This document shows positions 39,932-62,600 of a stretch of 64,000 nucleotides of DNA, in pieces. Under the pieces are notes generated by a model. The model was not told the origin of the DNA and ran no database searches. It was given only the letters and a program-made list of their open reading frames with translations. How positions within the stretch are numbered: the first letter of the stretch is position 1; each line of letters opens with the position of its first letter. Source of the stretch: Eledone cirrhosa (lineage: Eukaryota); assembly GCA_964016885.1 (NCBI GenBank), contig OZ024741.1, positions 305,970,001-306,034,000 on the forward strand, given 5' to 3'. The position numbers were made by a program, and so were the translations under genes.

Positions 39932-40140
39932 CCCTTTAGCATTTACATTATTCTATATTTACTATTGTATTTTCACAGTAAAGGCTTTACCTCACATAAT
40001 ATTGAATCTATGAGATTATGATATTATTTAATTTGAGAACAATACCTTAACATCAGTATGAGTGGCTTAGTTACAGCCAGTTTGAACAGACAGAGGTGAG
40101 AGAATTCTGGCCAGAAAGGGCACATTTAAATGTTAAAGGG
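39932..40140. mobile_element. piggyBac-like MITE, second copy
   Basis: TTAA|CCCTTTAGCATTTA...TAAATGTTAAAGGG|TTCA; colinear with 5920-6127. Confidence 0.75.
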
Positions 40141-40390
40141 TTCAATCCGGCAGAGGTCAATAAATAACTACCAGTCCAGTACTGGGATTGGTCTCTCTCT
40201 CTCTCTATCACTCTTACTCTCTTTCTCTAAAAGAAATTAGCTGTACTCCGACCTGGAAACTGATGGGCTCTGCCAGTTTAAAAGTGTGCAAGACGCATCG
40301 CGTGTCAGAACAATGCCTCTATGACTACATCAGGAGTTAAGGGCCCTTCTTAAGTGATTTAGTGATAGTTAGTTCGATAATATCTAATAT

Positions 40391-40578
40391 CTATGAATGA
40401 TACACTTTGACAATTTCTGTGATGTCTTTTCGACAAATTGGACATCCATCTTGCTTGTTGAGAAGCATGCTGGAACAGATGTAACAGGTGACCATGTGGT
40501 GACATGGGCAGAGCAGGCAGTCCCGAGCATTGGCCATACAGATAGCACAGTCTTGTTCACTGCTGATATATGGCATAC
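40391..40578 (-). CDS. Terminal coding exon of a host C-terminal RING-HC (C3HC4) E3 ubiquitin ligase
   Basis: CAIC...CPCHHMVTCYIC...CPICRKDITEIVKVYHS-stop. The acceptor is a long polypyrimidine tract plus TTGCAG (AG at 40580-40579), phase 1. Confidence 0.9.
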
Positions 40579-40697
40579 CTGCAAGAGAAAGAGAGAGAAA
40601 TATTTAAAAATGAATTAGTCATGAAAGAAAGAGGAGGAGGAGGAGGTGGGGGAATAATGGATGTAAAAACGATGGTATATATATATAGATATATCCA

Positions 40698-40729
<32 letters not shown>

Positions 40730-40799
40730 TTACGTTATTCCGGGTTGAATCGGAGGTAACCACAGTAAGTAAGGTACTCACTACATTGCAGAGTATAAA

Positions 40800-41437
40800 A
40801 GTTTTAATATAGATGAGATTCTACAGGACTAGAACTGTTTCATTCTTTAGAAATCATCAGGAATCTGGGTATCAAAAAATAAATATGGTATTTATAGGTC
40901 TCTACAAGTGGTAGGAGAAAGTGGGGAGTGGGATGGGTGTAGGTCATTGGTTGATAGAAAAGGGAATTCATTAAAAGCTAATTCTACAAAGCTATAGTTT
41001 ATTTTTATTTTTAGAGTAACAAAGGCAGACAGAATTCTATAAACAGGTTCTGGATGGCATACCATTCCTTGTCATTAAGTTTCTCTTAAGCTAACAGATG
41101 TCTATAAGATCAGTGGGGGGTCAGTCATGGTAGATAGAATTAAAGGAAAGGGAGATTCTTTAAAAGCTAAATTCATTAAGGTTCTACTAAGTGACAAAGG
41201 TTTAGAGAATTCTGTAGACAGATTCAAAATACTGAGTGCATATCTTACAATTATCTTCGAACTTCCCTTAAACTAATCAACTATATGCCAAAAATCAACA
41301 GACACATACACAAAAAAAACACTCACTCACACGCTCGCACGCAACCATAAACACACATACACATACACATATACACACATAAAAAAAAACCCCACACATA
41401 TATAAATATATTTATATACACATATATATACACACAC

Positions 41438-41504
<67 letters not shown>

Positions 41505-41625
41505 TACATATATATACACACACAAACACACACACACATATATACACATATATATACACTCACACACATGCATACATACACACAAATATACATGTCTATA
41601 CATATACATATACATATACATATAT

Positions 41626-41678
<53 letters not shown>

Positions 41679-41698
41679 TAAAATACACACACATATAT

Positions 41699-41745
<47 letters not shown>

Positions 41746-41762
41746 CACACACATACACACAA

Positions 41763-41813
<51 letters not shown>

Positions 41814-41862
41814 TATATACACATAAACAAATATATACATATACATACACACACATACACAC

Positions 41863-41913
<51 letters not shown>

Positions 41914-41939
41914 TATACACATATATAAGGAAAAAGCAC

Positions 41940-42001
<62 letters not shown>

Positions 42002-42020
42002 TACACCATTCATACATATA

Positions 42021-42078
<58 letters not shown>

Positions 42079-42079
42079 C

Positions 42080-42114
<35 letters not shown>

Positions 42115-42132
42115 TACATACATATACACAAA
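40800..42132 (-). repeat. Left arm of ~1.3-kb inverted repeat
   Basis: The unique part 40800-41330 is near identical to the reverse complement of ~51600-52150. Microsatellite landmarks (AAGGAAAAAGCACC, GAGATACACCA) are also mirrored. Confidence 0.95.
40816..40866 (-). ncRNA. Type I hammerhead ribozyme motif, sense to host pre-mRNA
   Basis: AGATTC-CTGATGA-tTTCTaaAGAAt-GAAA-CAGttctagtcCTG-TA-GAATCT: 6-bp stem I, 4-bp stem III, GUA cleavage triplet, weak stem II. Confidence 0.75.
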
Positions 42133-42199
42133 TACATACACATATATACACACATATATATATATATATATATACACATACATATACATATACATATAT

Positions 42200-42252
<53 letters not shown>

Positions 42253-42389
42253 AATATACATATATACACACACATATATATACACATACACACACACAAA
42301 ATATATAAAACATATATATATACATATACACACACATACATACACACATACACACATACATACATACATATACAAATATATACACATAC

Positions 42390-42445
<56 letters not shown>

Positions 42446-42448
<3 letters not shown>

Positions 42449-44598
42449 GATACGTATCGTAGGTTCATATACAATGAATTAAATAGAAACTATAAAAAGA
42501 CAACAAGCGCAAACTTAGATGAAATTAATAAGGAAGCATGTGCAATAGTGGATAAACTAGGTCTGGAAAAGTATACCCAAACTTATACCCCTAGGCAACC
42601 CAGGTTCACCCTTAAAGACCATAAGGCTGACTTCATTAGTAAACCCTCTGTTAGACTAATTAGCCCATCGAAGTCAGATATAGGAATTATCAGTAAGAAA
42701 ATTTTAGACGGCGTTATACCCACCATCAGGAGGAAAATACATCTAGAGCTATGGGAGAATACGGAAGAGGTTTTGAAATGGTTCTCAAGCCTTAGCAACC
42801 ATAAATCCCTTAAATTTATACAATTCGACATCGATGCGTATTACACCTCAATCTCCCCCATACTCCTTAATAAGGCCCTAATCATGGCGATGCAGAAAAG
42901 TGACCTCACTAGATCTCAAATTGATGTCATTCTTGCGGCCCGGAAAACGATAATCACATTTGAGGATGAATTGTGGACCCACAAGAATACGCCCAGCAAT
43001 TTCGACATCACAATGGGATCTAGTGACTCTGCACAAGTAACGGACCTGGTAGGATTGTACCTCTTAAAGGAGTTACATGAGACATTACCACACTTGAAGG
43101 GCGGCTTATACCGTGATGACGCCCTCCTCACTCTCGAGTATAAAAAGTGCAATATAGAAAGAACTAGGAAGCAATTACGTAGGTTCTTTAAAAACTTTAA
43201 TCTAATATTACCATAGATGCAAATGATAAAACAGTAAACTTCCTAGACGCCACCCTTGACCTAGAAAGTAAAACATTTGCACCCTACCATAAACCTAACG
43301 ATAGACTAACATATGTAAACGCCAGCTCTAACCACCCCAAATCAGTCCTAAACGCTATTCCCAGGGGGTCTCTAACAGAATTAGCAGACTGTCCTGTAAT
43401 GAGAGTATCTTCAACTCCAATGCAGAGTATTATGACAGGGCCCTAGCAGAATCTGGTTACGGGAGTAGATTATCATATATACATAAGGACTCTCAAACCA
43501 TGAGTGTGAAACCTACCTACATAATCACACATAGTATGGCCACAAAGCCTAACCAAATTAGATGCAAGAATCATAGTAAGAACCCTAATGGCGATAACCT
43601 AGCTAAATGTAAACCACGTAAAGACGATACTAGAGTCCCCCACCACAACTCTAAAACAGTAAATGATCACGCCATGAATATAAACCATCCGGGCTTAAGT
43701 AAAACGGACAACGCCACTAACGTTAATAACGGAACCCTACAAAATAGTACGCACAGTAGCGAGACTCACCCCACAGATAAGAAAAATAGAAGAAGGAAAA
43801 ACATGTATTTTAACCCACCTTTTAACTCTGAGGTCCTCACTAACCTCCCCTGAGTATTCTTCTCATTATTTGAAAAAAACTTCCCACCAGGCAATAGATA
43901 CCGCAACATAATTAACAAAAACGTAATTAAATTATCCTATTCGACCACACCTAACCTCGCATCACACCTAGCACGTACGAACATTAGGAAAACTAAGGAG
44001 GGATTCGAAGCAATTAAAATGGCAGTTAACCACCAGCAACCGACTGCACTAGAAAATGGGCAACATAATAGAATCAATGAGCCATCTAATGATATAGAGG
44101 CACCTAGTGATAATGCGAGTAACCAAACTTCGGGAGGTATGCTAACTAATCGAACCCGCAGTTGCAATTGTAGGCGGAATAGTAACTGTCCCCTAAGGGG
44201 GGATTGCCTCACGAAAAACATAGTATATGCATGTGACGTAACCACACACAACTCTACCAAAACATATATAGGAGCAACGTCCAATACATTTAAAACTAGA
44301 TTTAACGCGCATATGTACACATTTAGACACGACAGACATAAGAATGCCACCTCACTGGCGGGATACATCTCCTTCTTAAAAAATAAAAAATAATAGTACC
44401 CCATACAAACTTTTTTGGAGGAAGCTTACTAGATCCACGCCATACCGACCACAGAGCGGAAGTTGTGACCTGTGTTTACTGGAATGCCATGCCATAATAC
44501 ACTCTAAACTTAACCTGCTTAACAGGAAATCGGAAATTTTCTCCTCATGCCAACACAAAATCCTGAGTTCCTTCTTCTATTTTAAACCTAGCACATAG
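42446..44598 (+). pseudogene. Penelope-like element ORF (RT + GIY-YIG), Naiad-type, 5'-truncated and disrupted
   Basis: [61 protein letters not shown] (CxCx5C), IVY..TYIG, CDLC..E. Frameshifts near 43205 and 43365; stops at 43851 and 44391. Confidence 0.92.
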
Positions 44599-45327
44599 AC
44601 GTAACATATATCACGCAACCCCCACCTAGACTATAGTTCCCCCCCTTCCCCCCCCCCCAACCCGTAACCTAGATAGATAGGTACCGTAAGGGTGGTGCAG
44701 TCCCCTACAAGGTTGGTGCTCTTGCGTGTGTGTGTGTGTGTATTCTCCTTTTATCTCTCACACGCACGCACACGCAGACATATGTGTGGGTGTGCGTGCG
44801 TGTGTGCATGCATGCACGCATGTGTGCGTGCATTGTATGTAAGTATATTGTGTGTATATGTATGTATATATATGTATATGCATGTGTGTGTGTGTATGTG
44901 TATATTGTATGCATGCGTATTATATTGTGTGTATGTGTATGTGTGACATGTATGTGAATATATGTATGTATGCGTATGAGTGGGTATGTGTAAGTGTATA
45001 ATGTGTGTATGTATGTATATATGTATGTATACTCTTCTGTAGAAATTCTCTCTATGTGTGCTGTGTGGCATGAATTCCCCCTATAATACTCTTCTCTGAG
45101 AGGAGCACGATATGCAGAGTAACACATATGTATTGCCGAAGTTGAAACTGAGAACCACCACCCCTCCTGTTGACCTGGATGTTTACTGAGGACCAAAACA
45201 CCATTCTTCGGAATATAAGAGCGAAATGCGCTTGCCGGACTATTGATGACCATAACATCACATTCCAATGTAGTGGCAAAATACAGTGAATGATATGCAC
45301 GACCAGAAAACCACAGCATGCATATCC

Positions 45328-45493
45328 AAACAGCACAGATATGATATCAATGGGGGAATCAAATGAAAAATGTTTTGAGTTGAAACAGCACAGATATGAT
45401 ATCAATGGGGGAATCAAATGAAAAATGTTTTGAGTTGAAACAGCACAGATATGATATCAATGGGGGAATCAACTGAAATTTTTTGAGTTGAAA
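45328..45493. repeat. 55-bp tandem repeat x3
   Basis: AAACAGCACAGATATGATATCAATGGGGGAATC... starts at 45328, 45383 and 45438. Confidence 0.95.
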
Positions 45494-46928
45494 TACATGT
45501 GGATATGTGTCTGTGTGTATCGAACACACGAACACATAAGGAGGCTCTTGACCTAAATATACCTGTCATGCCTGTCTGAATCCTTAAGGGAACTGCCGGC
45601 CAGTTACTGTCTTGACCGATTGTAGTACCACTGGGTGAATCATTTGAGTTTTTTGGGTTGAAATACATATAGATATGTGTGTGTGTGTCGGACACACGTA
45701 CACACATAAAAAAGCTGTTATGCCTGCCTGAATTTTCGGTCAGTTGCTGACTTGACTGATTAACCCCACAATTACTACGTAGCGGTTCTTGCACGTGACT
45801 ACTGGACCCGGATGAAACGAAGACGAAGAATTTCCTTCCGCACCGTTTTGTACCACAGATGCGATATCACCCTGCTTCGTTGATGTCCTATCGACACCAA
45901 AGTTCAACGTTTGGGTATCACACCAAACCGGAGTACTGTGATCCTTGTGACTTCCAAATATACAACCACTGACACTGTCACGAAGACCAGGAAACCATAC
46001 TCCATATATTGAACCAATTGATTGATTTGTGCGAACAAAATAACACCAAACACATATTGAACTAGGAATATTGGATCCTCGGTCAATGTCCGGGTGAGCA
46101 AAAATTGACTTCTACCTGCATTGGAATTTACAAACTTGTGCATCTGCTGTGGTGTCAAAAACAAACGCACATGACCGCACAGATAAACAATGGACCATGC
46201 CACGTGGCTTGAACCCGTAAGTGAATTGAAGGTTCTGAAACTCTGATACACATATTGTTTATTATTTATTATTAAGATGTATAAACCGGACACAACTGTT
46301 ATCATCCTATATTCTCTCAACGAATCACACTTGATCATATTTCTCTATCCTGTTTTCTCCCCCCATAATTATTATATTTTTATTATTTTTTATTATTTTT
46401 TTTATTATTGTTTGAAAAAAATCGTTTTTTTTACATTGTGTTTTCCCCTCCAAATATTCGCTTATATTTCCTTATATATTCTCTATATATTTTTTATCTT
46501 TATTATTACTTCCACTTTTATCCTCCTTTATATTTTACCTTATTCTTACCTTTATACCTTATTATAGTGTAATCTTCCCCATGCCTTATTATACACTATT
46601 AATTATAGATTATTATTATTACTCTTTTTCCATTTCTAATTACCTCATGTACCTTCTCCTCCGCTATATGTATATATGTATTCTACGCCCTTTGTGTTTG
46701 TGTAGCCTCTGCGCACCCTCTGCACCATACTATCCACGCCACCCCATCTATGGTTCAGCTAACCACCCGACCCCCGATGACCGCAGCTAGTAAACAAGGA
46801 CCAACACCCCACCCTCCCGCACCAAAATTAGACTTATCGTCCCCTACTTTTGCTCTTTACTCTCTTTACTCTTTGTTCTTGGGTGTTTGGTTGGTAGAGT
46901 CCATAACACCAATCAAACCCCTTTTATA

Positions 46929-46975
46929 GCTCTGATGAATCCTACGGTTACACGTAAGGAAGAAACATTGTTAGC
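46929..46975 (+). ncRNA. Hammerhead ribozyme motif, probably the 3' pLTR of the + strand Penelope element
   Basis: gct-CTGATGA-aTCCTACG gttaca CGTAAGGAa-GAAA-cattg-TT-agc. Confidence 0.6.
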
Positions 46976-47034
46976 CAATAAAAATCTTTTGATGTTGTAG
47001 ACGCTCTTGTGTTCTTTTTCATATATATATATAT

Positions 47035-49926
47035 ATCTGTAACACTAACTTCAAAAAACGTGACAATCACCTGATCACCTATAGATCCGGGGAACACACA
47101 AGCCAGGTAGATTATATCCTTACCAGAAGACGTGACAGAGTGTCTGTTGTAAACACTAAATCCCTCCCCCATGAAGAATGCACCTCCCAACATAGACTGA
47201 TAATTAGCGACCTCATAGTCAGGACGAGACATACTCGACAGCAGAAGAGGACTATCCTCAGGAGAAAAATATGGAAGCTAAAGGACCCCACAGCCAGGAA
47301 TAAATTTCAAAGCATATTACTTGATGCTTTCGACAGTAAGGAAGAACATTTAGAGTCGGACAATATAGAGGGAGAGTGGGAATTTCTGAAAGCAAACCTG
47401 CTGTTGGCGACAGACGAAGTCTGTGGCTGGAGCAGGCCTGTAGGCAGGAGGAGAGTAGCATGGTGGTGGAACAGTAAGGTGGAGGGGTCAATTAAGGCCA
47501 AAAAGCAGGCTTGGAAAGTATGGCGGGATGGGGGAAGTAGAGAAGACTATCAAGTGGCCAAGAGGGAAGCTAGGAGACAAGTGTACTTAGCAAGAAGGGA
47601 AGCTGAGGAAAGAAAGTTCAAGCATGTTCTACAACGCGATGACCAAAAACGTGAGGTGTTCAGGATTGCTAGGCAATGCGTCAAGGAAAACCGTGATATT
47701 GTCGGGGAGAAGTGTGTACTAAACGATGATGGCACACTTGCCATCACCGACGCTGATAAGAAGGTAGCTTGGAAGTGTCACTATGAAAGGCTACTAAATG
47801 AGGAGAATAAATGGGAGAAAGACAGTCTCCCCCATATCGACCCAATAGAGGGACCAGCAGTGTTAGTCGAGGGGAGTATAATAAGTAAGGCAATCAAGGA
47901 TATGAAGACGGGTAAGGCGGCTGGGCCTTCGGAAATAGTTGCTGAGATGCTGAAGGCATCTGGCACGGTGGGACACACCATGGTCACCCGCATAGTTAAC
48001 CAAGTCGTACAGAATGGGGTTGTTCCGAAGGACTGGCATAGCAGCATCATCGTTAACTGTTATAAGGGTAAAGGAGACGCCCTAGATAGGAGTAACTATA
48101 GAGGCATTAAATTAATCGACCAGGTCATGAAGGTCACGGAAAAAGTAATAGCACAACTAATCAGAGAGAGAATTGACCTAGATGAAATGCAGTTCGGGTT
48201 TGTGTCAGGCAAAAGTACCACAGACGCTCTTTTCATTGTACGACAACTACAGGAGAAGTACCTAGCTAAAGGTAAACCCCTCTACTTAGCTTTTGTCGAC
48301 TTGGAGAAAGCCTTCGACAGAGTCCCCCGCTCCATTATCTGGTGGGCTCTTAGAAAACTAGGCGTTGACGAATGGCTTGTGAGAGCTATACAAGCCATGT
48401 ATAAAGAAACAGTCAGCAAGGTTAGAATTAACAACGAATATAGTGAAGAGTTTAGCATAAAAGTTGGCGTCCATCAGGGCTCTGTTCTCAGCCCCCTACT
48501 ATTTATTATTGCCCTTCAGGCTATAACAGAGGAGTTCAAGACCGGCTGCCCATGGGAACTCCTATACGCAGACGACCTGACACTCATAGCGGAATCAATG
48601 GCCGAGCTAGAGAAGAAATTCCAAACATGGAAGCACGGCCTAGAATCAAAAGGCCTTAAAATTAACCTGGCTAAGACTAAAGTTCTAGTTTGTAGGAAAG
48701 AAAATAAGGCGGCGGTCCCTTCTGGGAAATGGTCGTGCTCGGTGTGTAGGAAAGGCGTAGGTAGAAACTCCATTTTATGTCCTAAATGCAAAGTATGGGT
48801 GCATAAAAGATGTAGTGGGATCACAGGTAAGCTAACTAAGAACATAGATTTTACATGTGGCCGGTGCTCTGGTGCAATAAGTAGCAGCAAGTGCCCACAA
48901 AATACTAGCTCTTTCAATTGCGCAGAGGGTTCTATAGAAATAGTGGACAGTTTCCGTTACCTGGGTGATAAAATCAGCAGTGGGGGAGGGTGCTCTGAAA
49001 GTACAGTAGCTAGAGTCAGAACTGGTTGGAAAAAGTTCAGAAAGCTTATACCACTATTAGCTGCTAAAGGGTTCTCCCTAAAAATGAAAGGCAGGTTGTA
49101 CGATGCCTGCATACGAACAGCAATGTTGCATGGCATGGCAGTGAGACCTGGGCATTGTGTGCAGAGGATATACGCAGACTAGAGAGGAACGAAGCTTGCA
49201 TGCTCCGCTGGATGTGTAACAGTAATATACGTGAACGGCAAAGCATAAACGAACTAAGGAAAAAATTAGAAATAAGAGGGATCAGATGTTGTTTACTTGA
49301 GAGAAGGCTACGTTGGTATGGACACGTGATGCGCATGAAAGTCGATAGCTGTATAACAAAGTGCAGGGCAATAAAGATAGACGGTAGCCACGGAATAGGC
49401 AGATCTAGAAAAACCTGGGACGAGCTGATAAACTCCGACCTCACACACTTACACCTCTCCAAGACAATGTCACTGGACCGAGACCTTTGGCGGTACTCAG
49501 TAACAGAGAAGACCCGCCTTACCTAAATACATAGTAAAACCTACTACAGCCAGTAGGCATCTCTAACAAAATACCCCCCCCCCCCCGTCCCACCACCCCC
49601 ACCCCATCCACGCCACCCCATTCTATGTAAAGTTGTGTTGGTGCCACACCATCCAGGCCGAAACAAATGAGATCGTGCAGGTGTCACGACAAAAAAACAC
49701 ACAGTCCACGCTGTAATGTGGCCGTGTAGGCAACACGGTAAAAACCTCCCAGACCCACACTGTAAATGTGGTTGGTGTTAGGAAGGGCATCCAACTGTAG
49801 AAAACCTGCCAGGCAGTCCTATGCGAGCAAGTCAATCACTCTTGCCTCAAGTGGGACTACCCCCGTCCAAACCCATGCAAGCGTGGAACACGGACGTTAA
49901 ACGTTGATGATGATGATGATGATGAT
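47035..49926 (+). mobile_element. 5'-truncated RTE LINE (subfamily 2), RT + PHD finger; frameshift from TGGCA duplication at 49131-49140
   Basis: Starts inside the APE domain (ICNTNFKKRDNHLITY) directly after (TA)n. Has YADD and CSVC..CPKC..HKRC..CGRC, and ends in (GAT)n. Confidence 0.95.
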
Positions 49927-50032
49927 ATACACATACACATACATACACATACATACATATACACACACATACATACACACATATACACACACACATATAT
50001 ATATACACACACACACACATACACACATACAA

Positions 50033-50101
<69 letters not shown>

Positions 50102-50136
50102 CATATACATATATACAAACATACACATACATACAC

Positions 50137-50199
<63 letters not shown>

Positions 50200-50500
50200 T
50201 ATACACATATACATACACATACATACATAAATATACACATATAAAACACAAATACACACATACATATATACATATACATACACATACATATACACACATA
50301 CACACAAATATATACACATACAAATAAATAAGTACTCAATAAATATACGCATATACGCAGGCACATAAAAACACCTCTACAGGCAGAAAATGTAGATAGG
50401 AAAGAGGTACTCACATAACCATAGTGGCCGTATTACAGGTTGAGGAGGGGTGGGTGTAGGGTGGGATGGAGGTATAGGGGCCAATAGGGGGAGGTCGTTT

Positions 50501-50850
50501 TTAGCCATCGGGCTTTAACACTGGCTTAAAGTGTTTGAAAGTTGCAAAGTTCTTGTGCATGCAGTTCGGGCAGTGTTCAGAGAGTTTGTTCAGTAGCGGG
50601 CCCTTGGCGAATAAAATTTCGTAGCTCTCTGAAATACAAAGGTCGCAGCCCTTGTGTCCTCCGTTGTAAGAGCGCGCTTTCTGGAGTATTTTCCATTTAA
50701 GCGTGAAGGCGGTGGAGTTCCTTTTGAGGTCCCAAACGTAGGAGACGAGTGTTGTCTGATTTGATTTGTCCGGTATTCTGAAGGAGTGGGTATGGGCATA
50801 CCAACGAGTCTTAAAGTTGTTGGAGGTCATGCTGATGTAAGTTTTTTTGC
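50501..50850 (-). pseudogene. C-terminal GIY-YIG endonuclease fragment of a second Penelope family
   Basis: [22 protein letters not shown]...WKIL...CDLCISE..I...LLNK..E...CMH is homologous to 44260-44560. Confidence 0.88.
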
Positions 50851-50852
50851 AA

Positions 50853-50870
50853 TTTGTGTATATGTATGTA

Positions 50871-50907
<37 letters not shown>

Positions 50908-50908
50908 G

Positions 50909-50960
<52 letters not shown>

Positions 50961-50979
50961 TATATGTATGACTGGTGTA

Positions 50980-51070
<91 letters not shown>

Positions 51071-51180
51071 GTGCTTTTTCCTTATATATCTGTATATGTG
51101 TGTGTGTGTATGTATATATATATGTATGTATGTGTGTATGTGTGTGTATGTATATGTATATATTTGTTTATGTGTATATA

Positions 51181-51235
<55 letters not shown>

Positions 51236-51244
51236 ATGTGTGTG

Positions 51245-51285
<41 letters not shown>

Positions 51286-51291
51286 ATTTTA

Positions 51292-51334
<43 letters not shown>

Positions 51335-51465
51335 ATATATGTATATGTATGTGTATATATATGTATATGTATACACATGTATATTTGTGTGTATGTATGT
51401 ATGTGTGTGAGTGTATATATATATATGTGTATATATGTGTGTGTGTGTGTGTGTATATATATGTA

Positions 51466-51528
<63 letters not shown>

Positions 51529-52150
51529 GTGTGTATATATATGTGTATATAAATATATTTATATATGTGTGTGGGTTTTTTTATGTGTGTATATGTGTAT
51601 GTGGTTGCGCGCGAGTGTGTGAGTGAGTGTGTTTTTTTGTGAATGTGTCTGTTGATTTTTGACATATAGTTGATTAGTTTAAGGGAAGTTCGAAGATAAT
51701 TGTAAGATATGCACTCAGTATTTTGAATCTGTCTACAGAATTCTCTAAACCTTTGTCACTTAGTAGAACCTTAATGAATTTAGCTTTTAAAGAATCTCCC
51801 TTTCCTTTAATTCTATCTACCATGACTGACCCCCCACTGATCTTATAGACATCTGTTAGCTTAAGAGAAACTTAATGACAAGGAATGGTATGCCATCCAG
51901 AACCTGTTTATAGAATTCTGTCTGCCTTTGTTACTCTAAAAATAAAAATAAACTATAGCTTTGTAGAATTAGCTTTTAATGAATTCCCTTTTCTATCAAC
52001 CAATGACCTACACCCATCCCACTCCCCACCCTCTCCTACCACTTGTAGAGACCTATAAATACCATATTTATTTTTTGATACCCAGATTCCTGATGATTTC
52101 TAAAGAATGAAACAGTTCTAGTCCTGTAGAATCTCATCTATATTAAAACT
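50853..52150 (+). repeat. Right arm of ~1.3-kb inverted repeat, with hammerhead motif at 52084-52134
   Basis: Reverse complement of 40800-42132. Confidence 0.95.
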
Positions 52151-52179
52151 ATATATATATATTATATATATATGTGATA

Positions 52180-52360
52180 ATAATTGTTTCTACTTTAGGC
52201 ACAAGGTCAGCAATTACTCCAGTGCATTACTGGTACTTTATTTTATTGACCCCGTAAGGATGAAAGGCAAAGTAAACATCGGCGGGATTTGAACTCAGAA
52301 TCTAAAGGTAATAACTCTGTGCTGCAAAGTATGTTGTCTGACGCTCTACCGATACTGCCA
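52180..52360 (-). mobile_element. SINE family A
   Basis: Same boxes and core as the other copies. A more degenerate copy lies at 53030-53190. Confidence 0.8.
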
Positions 52361-52518
52361 AATAATGAGTAGGAATAATGCTATACTTAAAGGGACCCAC
52401 CTATGCATCGAGTACTCAAGTTGGTGAACCAATAGTAACATAAACTTATAATCCATTTAACTATAAACACACACATACACACACACACACACGTATATAC
52501 ATATACATATATATATAC

Positions 52519-52595
<77 letters not shown>

Positions 52596-52608
52596 CACAT
52601 ATATATAT

Positions 52609-52666
<58 letters not shown>

Positions 52667-52766
52667 GGTATATATAATATATGAATGGACCTGTTATTTT
52701 TATCTAAAGACATTTTTTCCAATTCCATCCAGCCCGTCTCCTCAATCTATTTTATTTCTCATTCTT

Positions 52767-52802
52767 TCTTCTGATGAAGGACTAGCGTCTGAAACGTTAA
52801 GA
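52767..52802 (+). ncRNA. Minimal type I hammerhead motif with palindromic stem III
   Basis: TCTT-CTGATGA-aGGACtagcGTCT-GAAA-CG-TT-AAGA. Confidence 0.65.
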
Positions 52803-53225
52803 CCGTCTTTCTTCTATATCAAGCATTAACCTAATATATACCTTCCATACTGTACCGATTGTTTTGTTATTTCTGTTTGCCTTTTACATACATGTAGAGC
52901 AAAAAAAAATTTCTTTTACATACATATATATATATACAAATGTATACACACCCTGCCATGGATACTTAATTCTCTAGGTTAAGTACCCATGGCAGAGAGA
53001 GAAAAAAGTGAGAAAGAAATATAGAGGAAGAATTGACCCCAGTATTGAACTGGTACTTTATTTATGAAACTTGAATGGATGAAAGGCAAAGTTAACCTTG
53101 TTGGGATTTAAAGTCAGGGAGCAGAAAGCTGGAACGAACACTACAAAGCATTCTATCTGACATTCTAATGACTGCTAATTTTCCGCCTTCAGACAAACAT
53201 ATAAAGCCCTCATAAAATGCCTTAC

Positions 53226-53336
53226 CTTCAGCATCCTCTTGTGATGGTGCTTCATTACCATCATGGGACAGCTTTGGAACTGTCTTCTTGAAAAAGTGAG
53301 TCATTCCAAATGAATTCTTGATCTGTTCTAAACGAA
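53226..53336 (-). CDS. Probable penultimate exon (111 bp, phase 1-1) of the RING gene
   Basis: Acceptor TTTGATTTCTTTCTCCACAG and donor GAAG|GTAAGG. Open frame RLEQIKNSFGMTHFFKKTVPKLSHDGNEAPSQEDAE(G); the final G joins GT ATG of the 40578 exon in frame. Confidence 0.75.
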
Positions 53337-53838: not shown

Positions 53839-56800
53839 TTACAGATATATACTCAGAGTAGGCCCATTCACTCGGGCCATTCTTGCTTCTCTCACCCATC
53901 TTTCAACAAAATGCTGGGAAGAGAGCACTTCCCTCTCTACTCTGATTTTCCTTTTCAAATGAAATTTGAAAAAGTCAATCAGAGCATCACCGAAGAGGTA
54001 AGTGCTCGTCTTCAGCCCTTTCAAACGTGTCCACCATACTATCTCTTTCGCCATGGCCACCAGACAGATAAAAACTGCCTGCCCTTCCCGGCTAAAGGAG
54101 GAGGGCGGGGCAATCCTCACGATGGACTCAGATGATAGCCGGATCCGTCCTAAACGCGACAGCAGGTGTTCGACATAAACCCACAAGTCAGCAATTTTCG
54201 GACACTGGACGAGTGCGTGCAGGACGGTTTCGTCGCCCTGCGCACATCTCGGACATGCCCGGCTGACGGCACCTCCATGCCTGTAGAGTTTATCCCGAAC
54301 TGGCAAGGCTCCTCGGTAGCACTGCCAGGCCAGAGATTTCTGGAAGTTGTCCATAGGCCCTGGCCCGAAAGTTCTTCCGAAGAGATTGGCTAGTTGATTT
54401 TCGTCGACGCCTAGAGTTTCCTCAAGTACGTCGTCGCTCTTCCCCTCCACTAATCCTCTATAGAACGCCGAGGTGGAGTTTCCACCGATCACATTGCCCG
54501 ATTGGCCGAGGGCTGTGAGCGCCTGAAGACATTCCACTCTCCAGGCGCTCCCTCTCGGTCTTCGCTTGACCCAGGACTGCAGCTCCGTCAAGGAAACGAG
54601 CTGGGGAAATACGTGTCTAGCAAACGGCGACCACACCTGATCACCGTCGAGGAAGAGGTGGAGATGTCGTAGCCTGAGCGCGTGCCTGCGCATCATCAGC
54701 CACGGCATGCCCAGCCCTCCACGTAGCGGGTGTTGACAACAGATGGACCGCCTGACCATCGGAGCACGTCCCTTCCACAAAAAGCGAAAGAGCAAACGCT
54801 CCAGCGCAGTCAGGCGAGGCTTAGGACAAGGTACGACGGTCAGGCGGTAGCAGATGACAGACGCGATGTACACGTTAGCCACCTCCGCTCGACCTTTCAG
54901 GGATAGCTTCCTCTCCGCCCATTTCTGGGTGAGAGAAGCCACCCTGCTCGTCACCTCGTCCCAGTTTTTGTCCGTCTGGAGGTCCGGACCGAACCAGACC
55001 CCTAGCAATTTAACCGGTCCGTCCGTCCAGCGTCCGACGACGCTGTTGGACGGCATGGACCTGCCTCTCCAGGTGCCGAGCTGCAGGCCCACTGACTTTT
55101 CCTGGTTGATCATTGCTCCTGTCACCGCTTCGTATTCTCTTAGTGTAGTGCCGATCGCCTCGATGTGTTTGGCGTTCGACACCACTACGGTGACATCGTC
55201 CGCATATGCTGACACGGATCTTCCGCATCCTAGTTCGCGCGGGACTCCCCTCAACGTCTTCAGTTTGTGCAGTAATGGCTCGAGAGTCAATACGTACAAG
55301 AGAGACGAGAGGGGACATCCTTGGCGGACCGAGCGCATGATGTTGAACGGTTCCGACAGGTAACCGTTCACTCTCACCACAGAGCAGATGTCGCTGTGCA
55401 TGGCAGCGATCCAGCCTCTGAAGACGGGCCCAAAGCCAGCCGCCCTCAGGACTGCCGCTAGGTAACGATGGTCGATCCTATCGAAAGCTTTCGACTGATC
55501 TAACTTGATCAAGGACCCACCTGTGCCAGGTTCCTTAGCTACCCTCTCTATGATGTATCGCATGAGGTGGAGGTTGTCGTGGATGGATCTGTCGGGAATG
55601 GCGCATGTCTGCGCCTCTCCCACCAGACCACCAACGACAAGCGCCAACCTCTTTGCTAGCACCTTGGCCAAAATCTTGAACTCTGTGTTTAGCAGAGTTA
55701 TGGGCCGGAAATTGTCTATGTTATCCCCCTTGTTCGGATCCTTTCTCAGCAGTGCCACCGCTCCTCGGCTCACAGAACTGGGAATTCTCCCGTTCTGTTG
55801 CCAGTTGCAGTAGACGTCCGCCAAGAGGCCTCCGAACAAGTCTGGCATCTGTACGTAAAGTTCATAGGGCAGACCATCCAAACCAGGCGATTTACCCCTT
55901 GTGCAGCCAGTCATTGCCTCCCTTACTTCAGTGGCTGTTATCGGCTTTTCGCAACACTTCGCCTCAGTGGCCGAGAGCCGTGGCAGTCCGTCGAGGTAGA
56001 CACTAAAGTCCATCCCTCTACCCGGCCCATCGCTGCCCCCGAACAGCTGAGCAAAGTGTCGCTGAAAAGCTTCACACATTTGCCCGGGATCGAGTAGCAT
56101 GCGCCCGTTGTGGTCCACCAAAGACCGGATCGTGGCTTTGTTGCCACGACGCGCCTCCGCCACTCGGGCCCATTGAACGGCTTTCGTCCCCTCGTGTCTG
56201 AGAGCACGCACCCTTGCTTTGACAACGCAGCCTTCGTGCTTAGCATTGAAGAATTGGTCAAGGGCCAATTTCTCCGCAAGCACGTCGGTCGCAATGCCTT
56301 TGCTAAGCGCCTCGTCTAACTTTCTAACTAGTTCTCCCTCTGCTCTATTTTTCTCTATTGCTAAAGCCTTACTAAACCTAATCGATTCTATTCTAATCGC
56401 TCTTTTCAGAGCAAACCACCACTTGTTGTTGACGATGGCCCCCGTCAACGCCCGCTTAACTAGTTCGCTAATCCGGTCTCTGTAGGCCTTGCGCGCTGAT
56501 AAGGACGCGTTTAGCTTCCAGTAGCCGGGTCCTCGTCTATGAAGCCTATCTAAGTCAAGCACACAGATCACGAATTTGTGGTCCATGTAGCTGACTATCT
56601 TGAATTGTGGACAGCCTATGCTAGACCTATCTATTTCCCTACAAAATACTCTATCTAGATATGATCTGGATGACCCTATGCGATTTGTCCAAGTCCACAT
56701 TGGCACATTCGGGAAATCCAATCGGTACCTGTCAGACAGTTCAAAACGCCTGAGCAGGTTGGTGAGGCTCTTGCACCCTCCACCCCTATCCGCTAATCCC

Positions 56801-57257
56801 ACACAGTCCCAGCGTGCATCTAAGATCCCGTTCCAGTCGCCCACTAACACTAAAGAGCGGGACGTTCCAAGAAAGGTCTCCAGACGCCGGAAGAAATCAG
56901 GCCGCCCTGCTCCTGTCGGGGCATAGACGGCCACTAGCCTGAAAGCTTGCCCTTCTCCGCTGGTCACGTCCAGCACCACCAGCTTAACCTCTGGGTCCAG
57001 GAAGATGGCCCGTATGGCGAGATCCAAACCTCTCCGAAAAAGCACAGCAACTCCTCCACCCGATCCAGGACGGCTGGGAGATGCGTACACATCGTAGCCG
57101 CCGAAGATCGGTGCGAAGGCCCGTGCTTCGGAGATTCTGGTCTCGCTGATGGCCACTACATCTATGTTTAGTGACCCGAGGTCGTTGAGCAGGTGACCTG
57201 CTTCCATGACGACCCCAAGCCACGCGCATTTATGCTGCCTATTCTGAGTGAGGTCAT
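53839..57257 (-). pseudogene. Tx1 ORF2 (APE + RT + CCHC) with a single 1-nt frameshift near 57202
   Basis: The true start MTSLRIGSINARGL (57257) is out of frame with AGHLLNDL. The rest is open for 1122 aa: ISET, VYAP, GDWN, YLDR, DH, KSPGLDG, DQSKAFD, RQGCPLS, YADD, CPRC..ETVLHALVQC. Confidence 0.92.
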
Positions 57258-57292
57258 GTTTAAAATAGAGTGGAAAAGATGGGAAAGACCAC

Positions 57293-59377
57293 TTACCGTA
57301 CTTTTGGTAGAGGAGGGATGGTTTTTACATCCCTTTTCACTTGATCGTCTGGTGAAGGGACCGTTGAATCGTCCCTTCGGCTGGTCGTCGGCTCTTCTAA
57401 GAGAATGTCTGAATATACTCTTCGATTGATGGTTCCTCCTAGGTCCCTGAAATCACCAACTGCGTTGGGGAATTTCGTTTTAATGTTTGTGTATTGTTTC
57501 TGTGCTATTTTTAGCAGTCTTATGTTAGTTGGCGTTTTGATTGGTGCTGGTATTATGTAGTCCTGTTGTGAAATGTCTGTGTGTTCAATTATGTAAGTCA
57601 TTAGTTTCTTGTTGTGTGCATTTATTGCCGTGCATTTGTTTTTCTGGGGGTGGGGTGTGGTTCTGCTATTTTCTTGTCGTTGTTGCTGGGTGTGTGTGTT
57701 TTGTTGTTGTGTTTGCGATGTTGGTGCTTGTGGTGGTGGTGTTGAAGGTGTTGTTGGCGGTGGGGTTGTCGCCGGTGGTGATGGTGGTGCTAGTGTGGGT
57801 GGTGATGGTGTTGGTGGTGTTGCTGCTGTGGGTCTCTTTGCAGTAGACTTTACCCTTTTCTCATTTCTTTCCTCCCTTTTCAAAGGCGACGATGCGCTGC
57901 TTCTGCGTTTGTGCCTTCTTACGACCTTTTGCCATCCCTCTCCCACCTCACACTCCATGTCTGATTCTGTGAGGTCGGGGAGGGGTACCAGCTCCACTCT
58001 TTCACTTGTTGTTGGGGATGTTTGCACTGGAGTCTCTGTTGCAGCTGCATTTGGTATTGCTGTTGTTGTTGTTAATATTTCCACTGCTGCTGCTGTTTTT
58101 GATTTCCGTGGCGTGGGTATGGGTGCCACGGACCTATCGTTCCTGGTTGCTGCTTGTCCTGTTGCTGGTAGCCGTGGAGCTGGCTTCGGAAGGAGGGGGG
58201 TTTTCTCCTTTCTCAGGGTCTTCTTGTTGCAGAAGGCCCTGAGGTGAGTCTTCGATCCACAGCGAAAGCATTTCGGGCGTTTGCCCTCAACACTTATGGG
58301 CAGTTGAGTGCCGTTATCGAAGTCTATCACATCCGGGATAGCTTCGATGCACTCCTGGTTGGTTTGGATTAGCATCTCAATGGAGGTGCCGACCCAATCT
58401 TCTCTTACTTTTTTCTGTACTTGCAGTACAGTTGTTTTGTCCTCGATTCCGACGAGGACAGACGCGGCCAGCCAAGAAGGGGCCATTCCGGGGGGGACGT
58501 GGGTCAGTTTGACCCTCACAATTTTTTGCCCGCAGTAGGAGGGCACCAACACCATTTCCTCACTCCTTAGGGTCACTACGGATTGGGCCTTTGCCTCCTG
58601 GGGTGTGGCAAAAAGTACGTCTACGGTGGCATATTTTTTGCCTCGGGTGATGTGCATTTTCCGCTGCCACACAGACCCCAAGGCTTTTTGTATTTGGGCC
58701 TCTGTGGCTCTTTCCACCCTACGGGATTTTGTACTTACTGTACGGTACGTGACCGTACAGTGCTCTTGGGTTTCGAAAAATTTTTCCGCTGCCTTGCAGA
58801 TTGCTCGGTGTCCATTCTTTGTCACCATCTTCTTTGCTTCCTCTAATTCCTCATTTGTTATGAGGATTGTTTCCAAGTTTTTCGCAATACCTGCAAATGA
58901 GATTGGTTTTTCTTTGCTGCTGTTGTTGTCGTCAGAGCTTTTGTTGTTGCTGCAGGTACTACGACTACTGCCTCCGCCGCTGTTGCTGTGGTTGTTGTTG
59001 GTGTTGCTGCTGCTAATGCTGTTGTTGTTTATGCTGCTGGTGATGCTGTTGCGGCTGCTACTGTTGTTTTCATTGTCACTGTTGCTGTTGTTATTACGGC
59101 TGCTACTGCTATTATTCCTGACGTCAGACGAATGAACTGGGTTTTCGTATTTCCCGCACACCTGTTTCGTCGCTGTCGTCGTCGTCGTGGAGAAACCTTG
59201 CACGCGTTGCACGAGACTTTTCTTTTCTTTCGTCGCTTGCGAAAGAGAAGGGAGGGAGAGAGACACATTTAAGGAAGGGAGGGAGAGAGACAATCTTCTC
59301 TCTGCTGTAGTGACGATTGAGGAAAAAGAAGACGGAATGAGTGGGAGTGACCTATGCAAATTCTTTTTCGTAGCCAT
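57293..59377 (-). CDS. Tx1 ORF1, gag-like, with CCHC zinc knuckle
   Basis: Open frame, likely starting at MATKK (~59377); CFRCGSKTHLRAFC knuckle; low-complexity S/N and P/T/Q tracts. Confidence 0.85.
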   Translation of the reverse strand: MATKKNLHRSLPLIPSSFSSIVTTAERRLSLSLPSLNVSLSLPSLSQATKEKKSLVQRVQGFSTTTTTATKQVCGKYENPVHSSDVRNNSSSSRNNNSNSDNENNSSSRNSITSSINNNSISSSNTNNNHSNSGGGSSRSTCSNNKSSDDNNSSKEKPISFAGIAKNLETILITNEELEEAKKMVTKNGHRAICKAAEKFFETQEHCTVTYRTVSTKSRRVERATEAQIQKALGSVWQRKMHITRGKKYATVDVLFATPQEAKAQSVVTLRSEEMVLVPSYCGQKIVRVKLTHVPPGMAPSWLAASVLVGIEDKTTVLQVQKKVREDWVGTSIEMLIQTNQECIEAIPDVIDFDNGTQLPISVEGKRPKCFRCGSKTHLRAFCNKKTLRKEKTPLLPKPAPRLPATGQAATRNDRSVAPIPTPRKSKTAAAVEILTTTTAIPNAAATETPVQTSPTTSERVELVPLPDLTESDMECEVGEGWQKVVRRHKRRSSASSPLKREERNEKRVKSTAKRPTAATPPTPSPPTLAPPSPPATTPPPTTPSTPPPQAPTSQTQQQNTHTQQQRQENSRTTPHPQKNKCTAINAHNKKLMTYIIEHTDISQQDYIIPAPIKTPTNIRLLKIAQKQYTNIKTKFPNAVGDFRDLGGTINRRVYSDILLEEPTTSRRDDSTVPSPDDQVKRDVKTIPPLPKVR

Positions 59378-59625
59378 GTTGTTTTTTTTGTTTAAAATAA
59401 ATATTGGGTACAAAACTCCAATAAGCAGTTATTTAACCCCGAAGGGCCAAATAACGGGCAGAAAGACCCCTCTCACGAGGAGGAGGGTGTTTTTGTCTAC
59501 AAGTTGGTCTAAGTTTTAAACAATTTACAATTGTTAAAGCGTTCAAAATTTACAGTACCTTACAGAGCCGAGCCTCCGTCAACCATAGCATTCAATAATA
59601 ATAATAATAATAATAAGAAGAAGAA

Positions 59626-62600
59626 GAACTCCAAACAGAACCAAAAGATAATACACAAGACTAACATAATTCTCAAAAACATTATCATCACAAACAAACT
59701 AAACATTACTGATTTAAATCATCTCTATTATGCATCGGCTAAAGTCACCACTCACTTATGTGGAGTGAAGATGAAAAAACAAAGGAATTCCCACAAGAAA
59801 TCTACTTGGCAAGAGAACATCAATTGCCAAATAAACCTTCTCTGATCTGACATAGAAATTTTAACAAACTATAAAGTAGGTGAACATGTTAAACAAACTA
59901 AACTTAGAAAATTGAAAAGAAAGTACAGTATAAAATCAACAAGTGACATAGACATGCTGATAGAAATAATCAAGCAAAAAGTGTCGGCCAAAGCTGCTCG
60001 TATAAGGCGCTTTGAAAAACGATCTAGATTCTATATGGACAATAATATGTTCAAAAACAACCAAAGAAACTTCTACAGAAAAATTGGTAAGTCAACAATA
60101 ACTGCAAAATCAATACCACCCAAGGAGGAAGTGCAAGAATTCTGGGAAAAGATCTGGGCCGAAGAAAAAGTTCATAACATACATGCCCCATGGATAGACA
60201 GACAAATGAAAGATACAGTTCACCTTGAGGAACAAATATGGGAAAATATAACAGTTGAACAGTTGCGTTTGGCTCTAAGAAAAACCAGCAAATGGAAATC
60301 CCCAGGAAAAGACAAAATACAAAATTTTTGGATAAATGCCTTCACAGAGTCTCATGAGCTGTTAGCCTAACTTTACAATGAAATAGTTAAGGAGCCAGAA
60401 AAGATACCATCATGGCTAGTTAACGGCATTACATTCCTGCTTCCAAAGAATGATGAGACAAACAATCCCAAAAATTACAGACCGATAACTTGCTTGACCA
60501 CAATGTATAAAATTTTAACATCAGTCCTAACTGAATATACATATGACCACCTGATAACAAATGACCTATTTCCCATTGAGCAGAAAGGGTGTAAACGAGG
60601 CTCATATGGCTGTAAGGATGAGCTTTTGGTTAACAAAATGATACTGGAAGATTGTCATAATAGACACAAAAATCTATCAATTGCTTGGATAGATTATAAA
60701 AAAGCATTCGATAGTTTGCCACACAGTTGGATTGAAAAATGTTTAGAGATTTTCAAAATATCTCCCGCTGTCAGGAAGTTTTTGTCATTCAGTATGAAGA
60801 CATGGAAAACGACACTCTTTTTGAATAGTGAAACAAAATCACTGGAAGCTGGAGAATTTAATATTAATTGTGGAATTTTTCAGGGTGACTCTTTATCACC
60901 GCTTTTATTCTGCATCGCACTTATACCATTAAGTAAAATGCTCAATGAAACAAAACATGGATATAAAGTCTATGACAAAACCATTAATCACTTGTTCTAC
61001 ATGGATGACCTGAAACTATTTGCAAAAAATGATGAACAATTGCAAGGGCTATTATCCACTGTGGAGCAGTTCAGTGATGACATTAAAATGGAGTTTGGAC
61101 TAGATAAATGCGCCAAAGCAACGTTCACCAGAAGAAAGCTGCTGAAAAGTTCAGACATTAATCTTGATCGGGGGAATGTGATAAGAGAACTTGATCAAGA
61201 GGAAACTTACAAATATCTAGGTGTTTGTGAAGGAGACGGAATCAAGCACTCGACAATGAGGGAAAGGATAAGGAAGGAATGTTACCACAGAGTAAGAGCA
61301 ATCTTAAGAACGGAATTGAATGCAAGGAATAGGATCGATGCCATAAACATGCTTGCCATACCAGTAGTAACCTACAGTTACAATGTCATCAACTGGTCAA
61401 GCACAGATATCTGTAGGCTCGATACAAAAATTCGAAAATTCTTAACCATGCACAGAATGCATCACCCTAAGGCAGATACAGATAGAATATATCTCCCTAG
61501 GAAAGAAGGAGGACGTGGGTTAATCCAGTTAGACATTGCGTTGAAAACTGCAACAATTGGATTATCTACATATCTAAGGGAATCACATGATTGGATGATC
61601 AAACTCGTTTTGAAACACGAAAGCATCAAAAGATCATACTCCATTACAAAAGATGCACAAAGATACAGTAATGGACTACAAATTTCAGAAGTCCCATTTA
61701 CTGCTAAAATGGAAAACACAGAAAAAGCAAAGCAGGTAAAAGTAACTGCAAAGAAAGAACTGCTACAGAAACTGGCTAAGAAATGGCAAGAAAAGTCTCT
61801 GTATGGAAAATACCCAGAACGAGCTAACAATCCTGATGTTGACAAAACTTTAACTCATCAGTGGTTGGCATCCTCTGGACTGAAATTGGAGACTGAAGGT
61901 CTGATTATATCAGCACAAGATCAGTGTCTGCCAACAAAAAATTACCAAGCCAACATAATAAAAAATGGATGCAGCCCATTATGCCGTGTAGGTAAAAAAC
62001 AACCAGAGACCATTGACCATATAATTTCAATGTGCAGTCCTATAGCTCCAACCGAATACCTAAACAGGCATGACAGAGCTGCACAATACATACATTGGAT
62101 AATGTGTAAGCATTTTGACCTGCCCCATCAAAAGAATTGGTGGGAGCATCAACCACCTCCCATACTTGAAAAAGATCACATCTCAATCTTGTGGAACTTT
62201 AGCATCCAAACAGATCGAAAAATAGATGCAAATAGACCTGATATAATACTGAAGGACTTTAAAAAGAGGATATGCCTGCTAATTGATATGTCCGTTCCAA
62301 TAGACAAGAATGTATCTATAAAAACATTTGAAAAATTGAGCAAGTATAAGGACCTGGAGATAGAAATTGGAAAAATGTGGAAATTGAGAACTAAAACAAT
62401 ACCAGTGGTTGTAGGCGCTCCAGGAATGATACCTAAGGGGTCTAATGATTACTTATCACAAATCCCAGGAAACCCACGTATAGGAGAAATACAAAAGATA
62501 GTACTCATGGGAACTGCCCATATACTAAGGAAGATTCTGTCAATATAAGTACATCACAAGTCTAAACACCTAAAGATGCATGTGTGAGTATGTATGTTCT

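What the first reader, a model, noticed from the sequence alone, without database searches (positions are those of the whole stretch)
40731..52150. Intronic hammerhead ribozyme preceded by its own 1.3-kb antisense copy: a possible self-neutralising insertion
Seen: the last intron of the RING gene (40579-53225) holds near-identical inverted arms at 50853-52150 and 40800-42132. The distal arm carries a complete type I hammerhead (40816-40866) in the sense of the host transcript, about 240-290 nt before the 3' splice site. Known: Penelope pLTRs carry hammerheads and are often duplicated in inverted orientation at truncated 5' ends. Inference: the antisense arm is transcribed first and could pair with the ribozyme arm. 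That would block self-cleavage, loop out 8.7 kb of nested transposons and create a long dsRNA ADAR substrate. Caveat: stem II is short and closed by a U-U mismatch, so activity is uncertain.
Basis: partly seen in the sequence, partly recalled or inferred. Interest (0 to 1): 0.72.

Follow-up and report, generated by a model that had tools for sequence, protein, structure and literature searches.

The report
Penelope insertion with routine mirror arm
This is one shortened copy of a very common Penelope-like jumping gene inside an intron of a likely octopus gene; such copies routinely carry a mirror-image end, so the antisense arm ahead of the predicted self-cutting RNA is likely a by-product of copying rather than a safety device for the host gene.

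Summary
The arms, the hammerhead motif and the intron are real. They form one 5'-truncated Hydra-clade Penelope-like insertion in a (TA)n tract, with the inverted end known for these elements, split by two nested retroelements. The hammerhead core has 9,393 exact matches in the genome. 42 of the first 100 sit in head-to-head pairs, where read-through on either strand always meets the antisense arm first, so the order shows no selection. Both arms carry the ribozyme. Cleavage is likely weak anyway: the fold is unstable, 11,549 matches read through the cut site against 146 that start near it, and copy starts pile up (1,045) at the first base of stem I, 30 nt below a TATA box, the likely RNA start. 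One public contig joins the host exons across the intron. Pairing over the 8.7-kb loop and A-to-I editing were not testable. Only 0.52 kb of each arm is unique sequence. This scan noted the same architecture before in other Penelope families of this genome. Verdict: new member of a known kind; self-neutralisation not excluded but unsupported. The arms' outward-facing promoters are the likelier route to a host effect.

The parts
40391..40578 (-). Coding part of the last exon of the host gene (C3HC4 RING, stop included); an in-frame Met lies at 40576
   Evidence: contig join
40579..53225 (-). Host intron, 12,647 nt
53226..53336 (-). Preceding host exon
   Evidence: 33 of 36 residues identical to P0001
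40731..40799 (-). 69-nt 'tail' present only on the sense arm; it is the start of the next unit of the element, ending in a (TA)n tract
40800..42132 (-). Sense arm: 3' pLTR (unique part 40800-41318) plus microsatellite-rich 3' UTR
40816..40866 (-). Predicted type I hammerhead in host sense; 40866 is the likely transcription start of the element
40891..40896 (-). TATA box 30 nt upstream of 40866 (predicted promoter facing the last exon)
   Evidence: sequence; pile-up of copy starts
42133..42440 (-). Microsatellite of the element's own 3' UTR outside the duplicated part
   Evidence: assignment inferred
42470..47020 (+). Nested, broken second Penelope-like element (44% identity to the first family's RT over 240 aa), with its own hammerhead-like motif at 46932; ends approximate
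47035..49925 (+). Nested 5'-truncated LINE-type element (RVT_1 plus PHD) with a trinucleotide-repeat tail
49925..50852 (-). Body of the host Penelope-like element: C-terminal GIY-YIG fragment (50501-50851), 3' UTR, microsatellite; 5'-truncated at about 50852
   Evidence: 89% to L031 and L032 over 945 nt; translation
50853..52150 (+). Inverted arm, abutting the truncation point, without the tail, ending in a (TA)n tract
52084..52134 (+). Second complete predicted hammerhead (antisense to the host)
52054..52059 (+). TATA box of the inverted arm (predicted promoter facing the preceding exon, antisense to the host)
   Evidence: sequence

Best explanation
The region 40731-52150 is a 5'-truncated Penelope-like retroelement with Hydra-clade protein motifs and an inverted end copy, likely made in one insertion into a (TA)n tract of the intron and likely split later by two other retroelements. 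Shown: the arms share private changes, the inverted arm abuts the truncated endonuclease, and the family routinely forms head-to-head pairs with one long and one short end. Inferred: both arms were reverse-transcribed from the same uncut RNA from two start sites 69 nt apart and joined head to head; the family's RNA starts at the first base of hammerhead stem I under a TATA box. The hammerhead is a conserved but likely slow or protein-assisted motif. The host intron is likely spliced normally because cutting is rare and slow, not because the antisense arm masks it; any pairing or editing of the arms would be incidental.
For: Continuity of endonuclease, UTR, microsatellite and pLTR in L031 and L032. 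2 substitutions shared by both arms and absent from 29 other arms. 9,393 exact core matches; 21 of 21 neighbours within 12 kb among the first 100 are head-to-head, 1.1 neighbours expected by chance. 21 of 22 paired loci printed have one long and one short end, the 22nd has three arms (read by eye). Hydra diagnostics in the family ORF. Starts: 1,045 in a 2-position window at stem I, 606 in a 5-position window inside the core, 146 in a 5-position window at the cut, 11,549 read through the cut. Active fold -4.5 against -7.9 kcal/mol for the best fold, probability 0.001. Exon join in one contig. Inverted pLTR with one-sided tail is the published norm (PMC8557442, PMC3846280); opposite-strand hammerhead pairs are noted in PMC4209133.
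Against: No RNA data for this locus: pairing, editing, cleavage and promoter use are untested. The joined contig comes from a second sample of unrecorded kind, differs at 7 of 490 letters, and may come from an animal without the insertion. If the arms do meet, the duplex is far more stable than the ribozyme (-921 kcal/mol for 519 nt). The motif is conserved with a compensatory stem I pair (A-U against C-G in 9 of 28 sister motifs) and 13 different loops, so it likely can cut under some condition; ViennaRNA ignores tertiary contacts, dimers and protein help. Read-through of the cut site could also come from religated circles. The nested second element's best copies are 98% alike while the arms differ by 0.8%, so conversion between arms or another order of events is not excluded.
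Confidence: 0.85

Rival explanations
1. Self-neutralising insertion: the ribozyme would cut the pre-mRNA, and the earlier-made antisense arm pairs with it and so protects the host gene.
For: Antisense arm is transcribed first and covers the whole motif; duplex very stable; before the nested insertions the two motifs would have been about 3.7 kb apart instead of 11.2 kb (coordinates); exons are joined in one contig.
Against: The order is automatic for all head-to-head pairs. 58 of the first 100 exact core hits have no exact partner within 12 kb, though some have a shorter partner. Ribozyme likely weak. Human edited Alus lie on average 0.8-1.1 kb from an inverted partner (PMC4365171), against an 8.7-kb loop here; arms here are longer and more alike than Alus, and the host differs. 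Slow hammerheads in introns are reported not to stop splicing (PMC2995048).
Confidence: 0.07
2. Promoter effect: each arm keeps the element's TATA promoter and points outward, so the insertion would make a short sense RNA from 40866 into the RING exon (in-frame Met at 40576) and an antisense RNA from 52084 towards the preceding exon. These RNAs would not contain the antisense arm, so their ribozyme would not be masked. This can hold together with the best explanation.
For: TATA box 30 nt above the position where 1,045 copies start; by eye 70 of the 100 listed rows keep the A of 40866 and 59 of these 70 have a G before it where the element has C, as expected from copying a cap (about 14 of the 59 could be partner-arm letters); pLTR TATA/Inr promoters are described in PMC3846280; Met-started RING frame.
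Against: No RNA evidence at this locus. Several upstream ATGs lie between 40866 and 40576 (read by eye). The pattern excludes C at that place, which raises the share of G. Drosophila Penelope has a TATA-less internal promoter (PMC2377424, abstract).
Confidence: 0.15
3. Two independent insertions of the family, or an assembly artefact, happen to face each other.
For: The family is very abundant; the arms differ at 4 of 519 sites, and the inverted arm differs from L002, L003 and L004 at only 4 sites as well.
Against: Two private shared substitutions and a shared subfamily deletion; matching microsatellite pattern; exact abutment to the truncation point; one long and one short end as in other pairs. 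The arms are not identical, as a plain assembly duplicate would be.
Confidence: 0.04

Closest known systems
Hydra clade of C-terminal EN+ Penelope-like elements (Craig et al. 2021, PMC8557442), including Hydra-1_Obim from Octopus bimaculoides
   Same: CxCx5C linker, DKT, RW-basic motif, CxxC and CxH around the endonuclease E and N, no CCHH-type core, (TA)n target, hammerhead near the 3' end; protein visibly similar to Hydra-1_Obim by eye.
   Different: A different family: the listed Hydra-1_Obim hammerhead has a longer stem II and another stem III; here about 10,000 motif copies and a long microsatellite 3' UTR. No tree was built.
Inverted-pLTR, one-sided-tail insertions of canonical Penelope-like elements (PMC8557442 Fig. 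2 legend; PMC3846280; PMC11167929)
   Same: Inverted 5'-truncated copy next to the 5' end, head-to-head; tail on one end only, explained by two reverse-transcription start sites; uncut RNA as template.
   Different: Tail is 69-77 nt here against 30-40 nt in those papers; the loop has been widened by about 7.5 kb of nested elements.
Metazoan Penelope hammerheads (Cervera and de la Pena 2014, PMC4209133)
   Same: Type I motif in the pLTR; thousands of dispersed copies; pairs on opposite strands 100-700 bp apart were noted; low activity in vitro.
   Different: This one has a 4-bp stem III with an 8-nt loop and a short stem II closed by U-U instead of the conserved G10.1-C11.1 pair and long helix II.
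Intronic self-cleaving ribozymes such as CPEB3 (PMC10919898, search listing only) and inverted-Alu dsRNA (PMC4365171)
   Same: Ribozyme motif upstream of an exon; inverted repeats in one intron.
   Different: No conservation of this insertion across species is shown, it is young (0.8% between arms), and the partner lies 8.7 kb away.

Membership tests
EN+ Penelope-like element | Single ORF with RT followed by C-terminal GIY-YIG endonuclease | tested here: met
   L031/L032 frames show RT motifs and a C-terminal YIG region; Pfam GIY-YIG only E=0.022, below cut-off, and RVT_1 not matched; 655 relatives at E<=1e-60, nearly all unnamed. The window copy keeps only the last 116 codons.
EN+ Penelope-like element | pLTR with hammerhead, continuing into the ORF start in tandem units | tested here: met
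   In L032 the tail sequence runs on into the ORF.
EN+ Penelope-like element | Inverted 5'-truncated copy and one-sided tail | tested here: met
EN+ Penelope-like element | Target-site duplication | tested here: inconclusive
   Both ends run into (TA)n tracts; none can be told, as PMC8557442 reports for microsatellite-targeting clades.
Hydra clade | CxCx5C linker, DKT, RWK, CxxC and CxH beside the endonuclease E and N, no CCHH | tested here: met
   Read by eye against section 11 of PMC8557442; RWR stands in place of RWK.
Hydra clade | Placement in an RT tree with reference Hydra families | not tested
   No tree built.
Neptune/Nematis clades | CX2-5CxxC linker and CCHH motif | tested here: not met
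   Linker is CxCx5C and the GIY-YIG core lacks a CxxC pair.
Type I hammerhead ribozyme | Conserved core with three helices, stem I open | tested here: met
   covariation in stem I and free loop in stem II across 28 sister motifs (core and part of stem III were fixed by the search pattern).
Type I hammerhead ribozyme | G10.1-C11.1 closing pair; match to Rfam models | tested here: not met
   U-U here and in 25 of 28 sister motifs; 0 Rfam matches at gathering score.
Type I hammerhead ribozyme | Self-cleavage | not testable with these tools
   Genomic 5' ends show no pile-up at the cut site.
ADAR dsRNA substrate | A-to-G clusters in reads from both arms | not testable with these tools
   Only contigs were served, and copies of the repeat from elsewhere dominate the arms.

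The most novel reading that the evidence does not exclude
Head-to-head Penelope insertions carry a built-in antisense lock: any host transcript that runs through them makes the antisense arm first and masks the hammerhead, while the element's own RNA, which starts at the first base of the ribozyme, escapes the lock. This would let ribozyme-bearing elements fill introns at low cost, and would show as an excess of paired over single copies among intronic host-sense hammerheads. At this locus the two outward promoters could in addition yield a RING-only RNA and an antisense RNA.
Probability: 0.1. Interest if true: 0.65.

Novelty: new member of a known kind. Interest (0 to 1): 0.25.

Why it matters
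As a locus it is ordinary: one of thousands of similar insertions. The family data bear on an open question, what Penelope hammerheads are for: copy ends suggest that the RNA begins at the first base of the ribozyme and is copied uncut, so a cut would remove a 45-nt capped leader rather than define the copied unit. If antisense masking proved real and selected, it would explain how genomes tolerate about 10,000 ribozyme motifs, and it is testable with gene annotation alone.

Tried and rejected
Rfam scan: 0 matches. Run search: no RNA holder listed; four contig runs of one study were laid. T>C share of listed differences was 25 of 88 in X4 against 21 of 116, 22 of 114 and 23 of 113 in X1-X3; repeat copies confound this, so it is not used. 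Idea that copies begin at the ribozyme cut (prompted by L032): rejected, no pile-up. First clade guess Neptune: rejected. DNA-transposon terminal inverted repeats: rejected, the arms are pLTRs of an RT element. Gene conversion between arms: not resolvable with 4 differences. Fold of the tail region of L032 showed hairpins near both end sites but z = -1.77 only: inconclusive. The bacterial promoter scan does not apply to this genome. Look-up of earlier findings by sequence: nothing. Paper search returned unrelated papers; (hammerhead, retrotransposon, antisense, inhibit self-cleavage, intron) returned 0 papers, and searches listed none whose title or abstract start proposes antisense masking of a Penelope hammerhead; this is a narrow search of an open-access library. 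A test for selection on paired intronic copies was not possible without gene annotation. The letter tally for and the end tally for one search are by eye only.

Full report
Observation. The two arms exist: 40800-41318 and 51632-52150 are 99% complementary, with 4 differences in 519 nt. With the adjoining TA/TG microsatellite the match runs over 1,359 columns at 91% with 72 gap positions. The minus strand at 40816-40866 reads as a type I hammerhead with a predicted cut at 40822/40821. Rfam found 0 matches in the window at gathering score. The other arm holds the same complete motif on the plus strand at 52084-52134.

Host gene. The last exon encodes a C3HC4 RING. Its 60 longer homologues are mostly about 290-aa proteins with PF02737 plus RING, the best from Octopus bimaculoides at 95%; the exon at 53226-53336 matches the same protein at 33 of 36 residues. 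The genome is therefore likely an octopus. A 1,231-nt contig of depth 16.2 in run X4 covers 40086-40575 with its letters 1-490 and 53223-53336 with its letters 491-604; three letters at the joint fit either side. I take these as one record from equal length and depth. The run's kind is not on record, it is a second sample, and it differs at 7 of 490 letters, so it shows the intron but not that an animal carrying this insertion splices it.

What the repeat is. The 27-nt core has 9,393 exact matches in the 3.0-Gb genome. Two longer loci, L031 and L032, show a reverse transcriptase and endonuclease frame followed by UTR, microsatellite and the pLTR; window 50853 to 49925 matches them at 89% over 945 nt and the arms match their 3' part. 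So 50852-49925 plus 42440-40731 is one element on the minus strand, truncated inside the endonuclease, and the inverted arm starts at the truncation point. About 7.5 kb between 42440 and 49925 are two nested elements on the plus strand: a second Penelope-like family (44% identity over 240 aa) and a LINE-type RT with a PHD finger. The arms share two substitutions absent from 29 other arms, and a deletion shared with L002 and L003 (those 29 come from the best-scoring copies, 40 scored of 1,953 candidates). The family protein shows the Hydra-clade marks of PMC8557442 and resembles Hydra-1_Obim by eye; no tree was built.

The inverted arm is routine. Among the first 100 listed core matches, 21 neighbours lie within 12 kb; all 21 are head-to-head, against 1.1 neighbours of any orientation expected by chance; 12 are at most 62 nt apart. 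Of 22 paired loci printed, 21 have one arm with the long tail and one ending 14-23 nt after the cut site, and one has three arms (read by eye; L033 and L034 were fetched but not printed). The window pair follows this rule.

Is the ribozyme a threat? The active fold scores -4.5 kcal/mol against -7.9 for the best fold, with probability 0.001; stem II pair probabilities are below 0.01 and stem III about 0.03 (no tertiary contacts modelled). The U-U closure is not decay: 25 of 28 sister motifs have it, with 13 different four-base loops and a compensatory stem I pair in 9 of 28, so the motif is kept by selection on the element. Genomic copies record the RNA they were copied from: 11,549 matches span the cut site, while 146 begin within a five-position window at it, 606 within a like window in the core and 1,045 within a two-position window at the first base of stem I. 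These patterns exclude certain letters and so miss perhaps half of each class; copies cut short inside an anchor are not counted. That first base (40866) lies 30 nt below a TATA box. By eye, 70 of the 100 rows listed keep that A and 59 of the 70 have a G in front, as copying of a cap would give; about 14 of the 59 could be letters of the partner arm, and C was excluded by the pattern. I infer that the element's RNA starts there and is mostly copied uncut.

Literature. PMC8557442 (passages, section 11, two supplement look-ups): inverted 5'-truncated copies and a one-sided 30-40 bp tail are typical; Hydra clade defined. PMC3846280 (passages): same structure, TATA and initiator motifs in pLTRs, head-to-head most frequent. 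PMC11167929 (parts 1-2 of 4): two RT start sites explain the tail; the anole hammerhead cut only with protein, unprocessed RNA was the main substrate, and no RNA-seq reads ended at the cut. PMC4209133 (parts 1-2 of 4): metazoan Penelope hammerheads showed no monomer activity and low dimer activity; opposite-strand pairs noted. PMC2995048 (passages): reports that introns cut by a slow hammerhead were still spliced and that a fast ribozyme blocked splicing; the two primary papers were not read. PMC4365171 (passage): edited Alus lie 814 to 1,130 bp from an inverted partner on average. PMC2377424 (abstract): Drosophila Penelope promoter is internal and TATA-less. Others were seen as search listings only. 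bioRxiv supplements were not available; the 2026 retrozyme preprint (listing only) may bear on this family.

Mechanism and verdict. Most likely one insertion event made two cDNAs from uncut RNA at two start sites and joined them head to head in a (TA)n tract; later insertions widened the loop from about 1.2 to 8.7 kb, moving the two motifs from about 3.7 to 11.2 kb apart. The host intron is likely removed normally because the ribozyme is slow. If the arms meet, the duplex would win (-921 kcal/mol), so incidental pairing and editing are possible, but nothing here shows that it happens or matters. A promoter effect of the two outward-facing arms is the more plausible way for this insertion to touch the host gene, and is untested. 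New member of a known kind; interest 0.25.

Noticed in passing
window 40391-40578 and 53226-53336: The host protein joins a 3-hydroxyacyl-CoA dehydrogenase NAD-binding domain to a C-terminal RING; about 290 aa and conserved in molluscs, annelids, nemerteans, a brachiopod, echinoderms and hemichordates, named automatically as a dehydrogenase. Possibly a metabolite-sensing ubiquitin ligase; untested.
   Followed up: partly
G000 genome-wide: Two patterns show a large forward-strand excess (5,909 against 3,484; 2,711 against 807) while a neighbouring pattern is balanced (5,780 against 5,769). This hints at a tandem array of about 2,000 partial hammerhead units somewhere in the assembly.
   Followed up: no
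window 12316-25470: About 13 kb tandem array of 12- and 15-nt G/T-rich units with extreme strand skew, open in three frames.
   Followed up: no
window 53839-59428, minus: LINE-type element with two long open frames (711 aa; 1,161 aa with endonuclease, RT and zf-RVT) just upstream of the 53226 exon, in host sense.
   Followed up: no
window 46932 and 52771 (+), 30934 (+): Further hammerhead-like motifs; the two in this intron are antisense to the host, and 30934 is an older sister of the family studied.
   Followed up: partly
L035-L050: Many insertions of the family are tiny near-perfect hairpins of two hammerheads back to back with a spacer of a few bases; these, more than the window locus, would mask their own ribozyme in read-through RNA.
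   Followed up: partly
window 1599-4724 (-) and 60371-62548 (+): Two more RT-bearing elements; the first is 75% alike to the LINE nested at 47035-49925.
   Followed up: no
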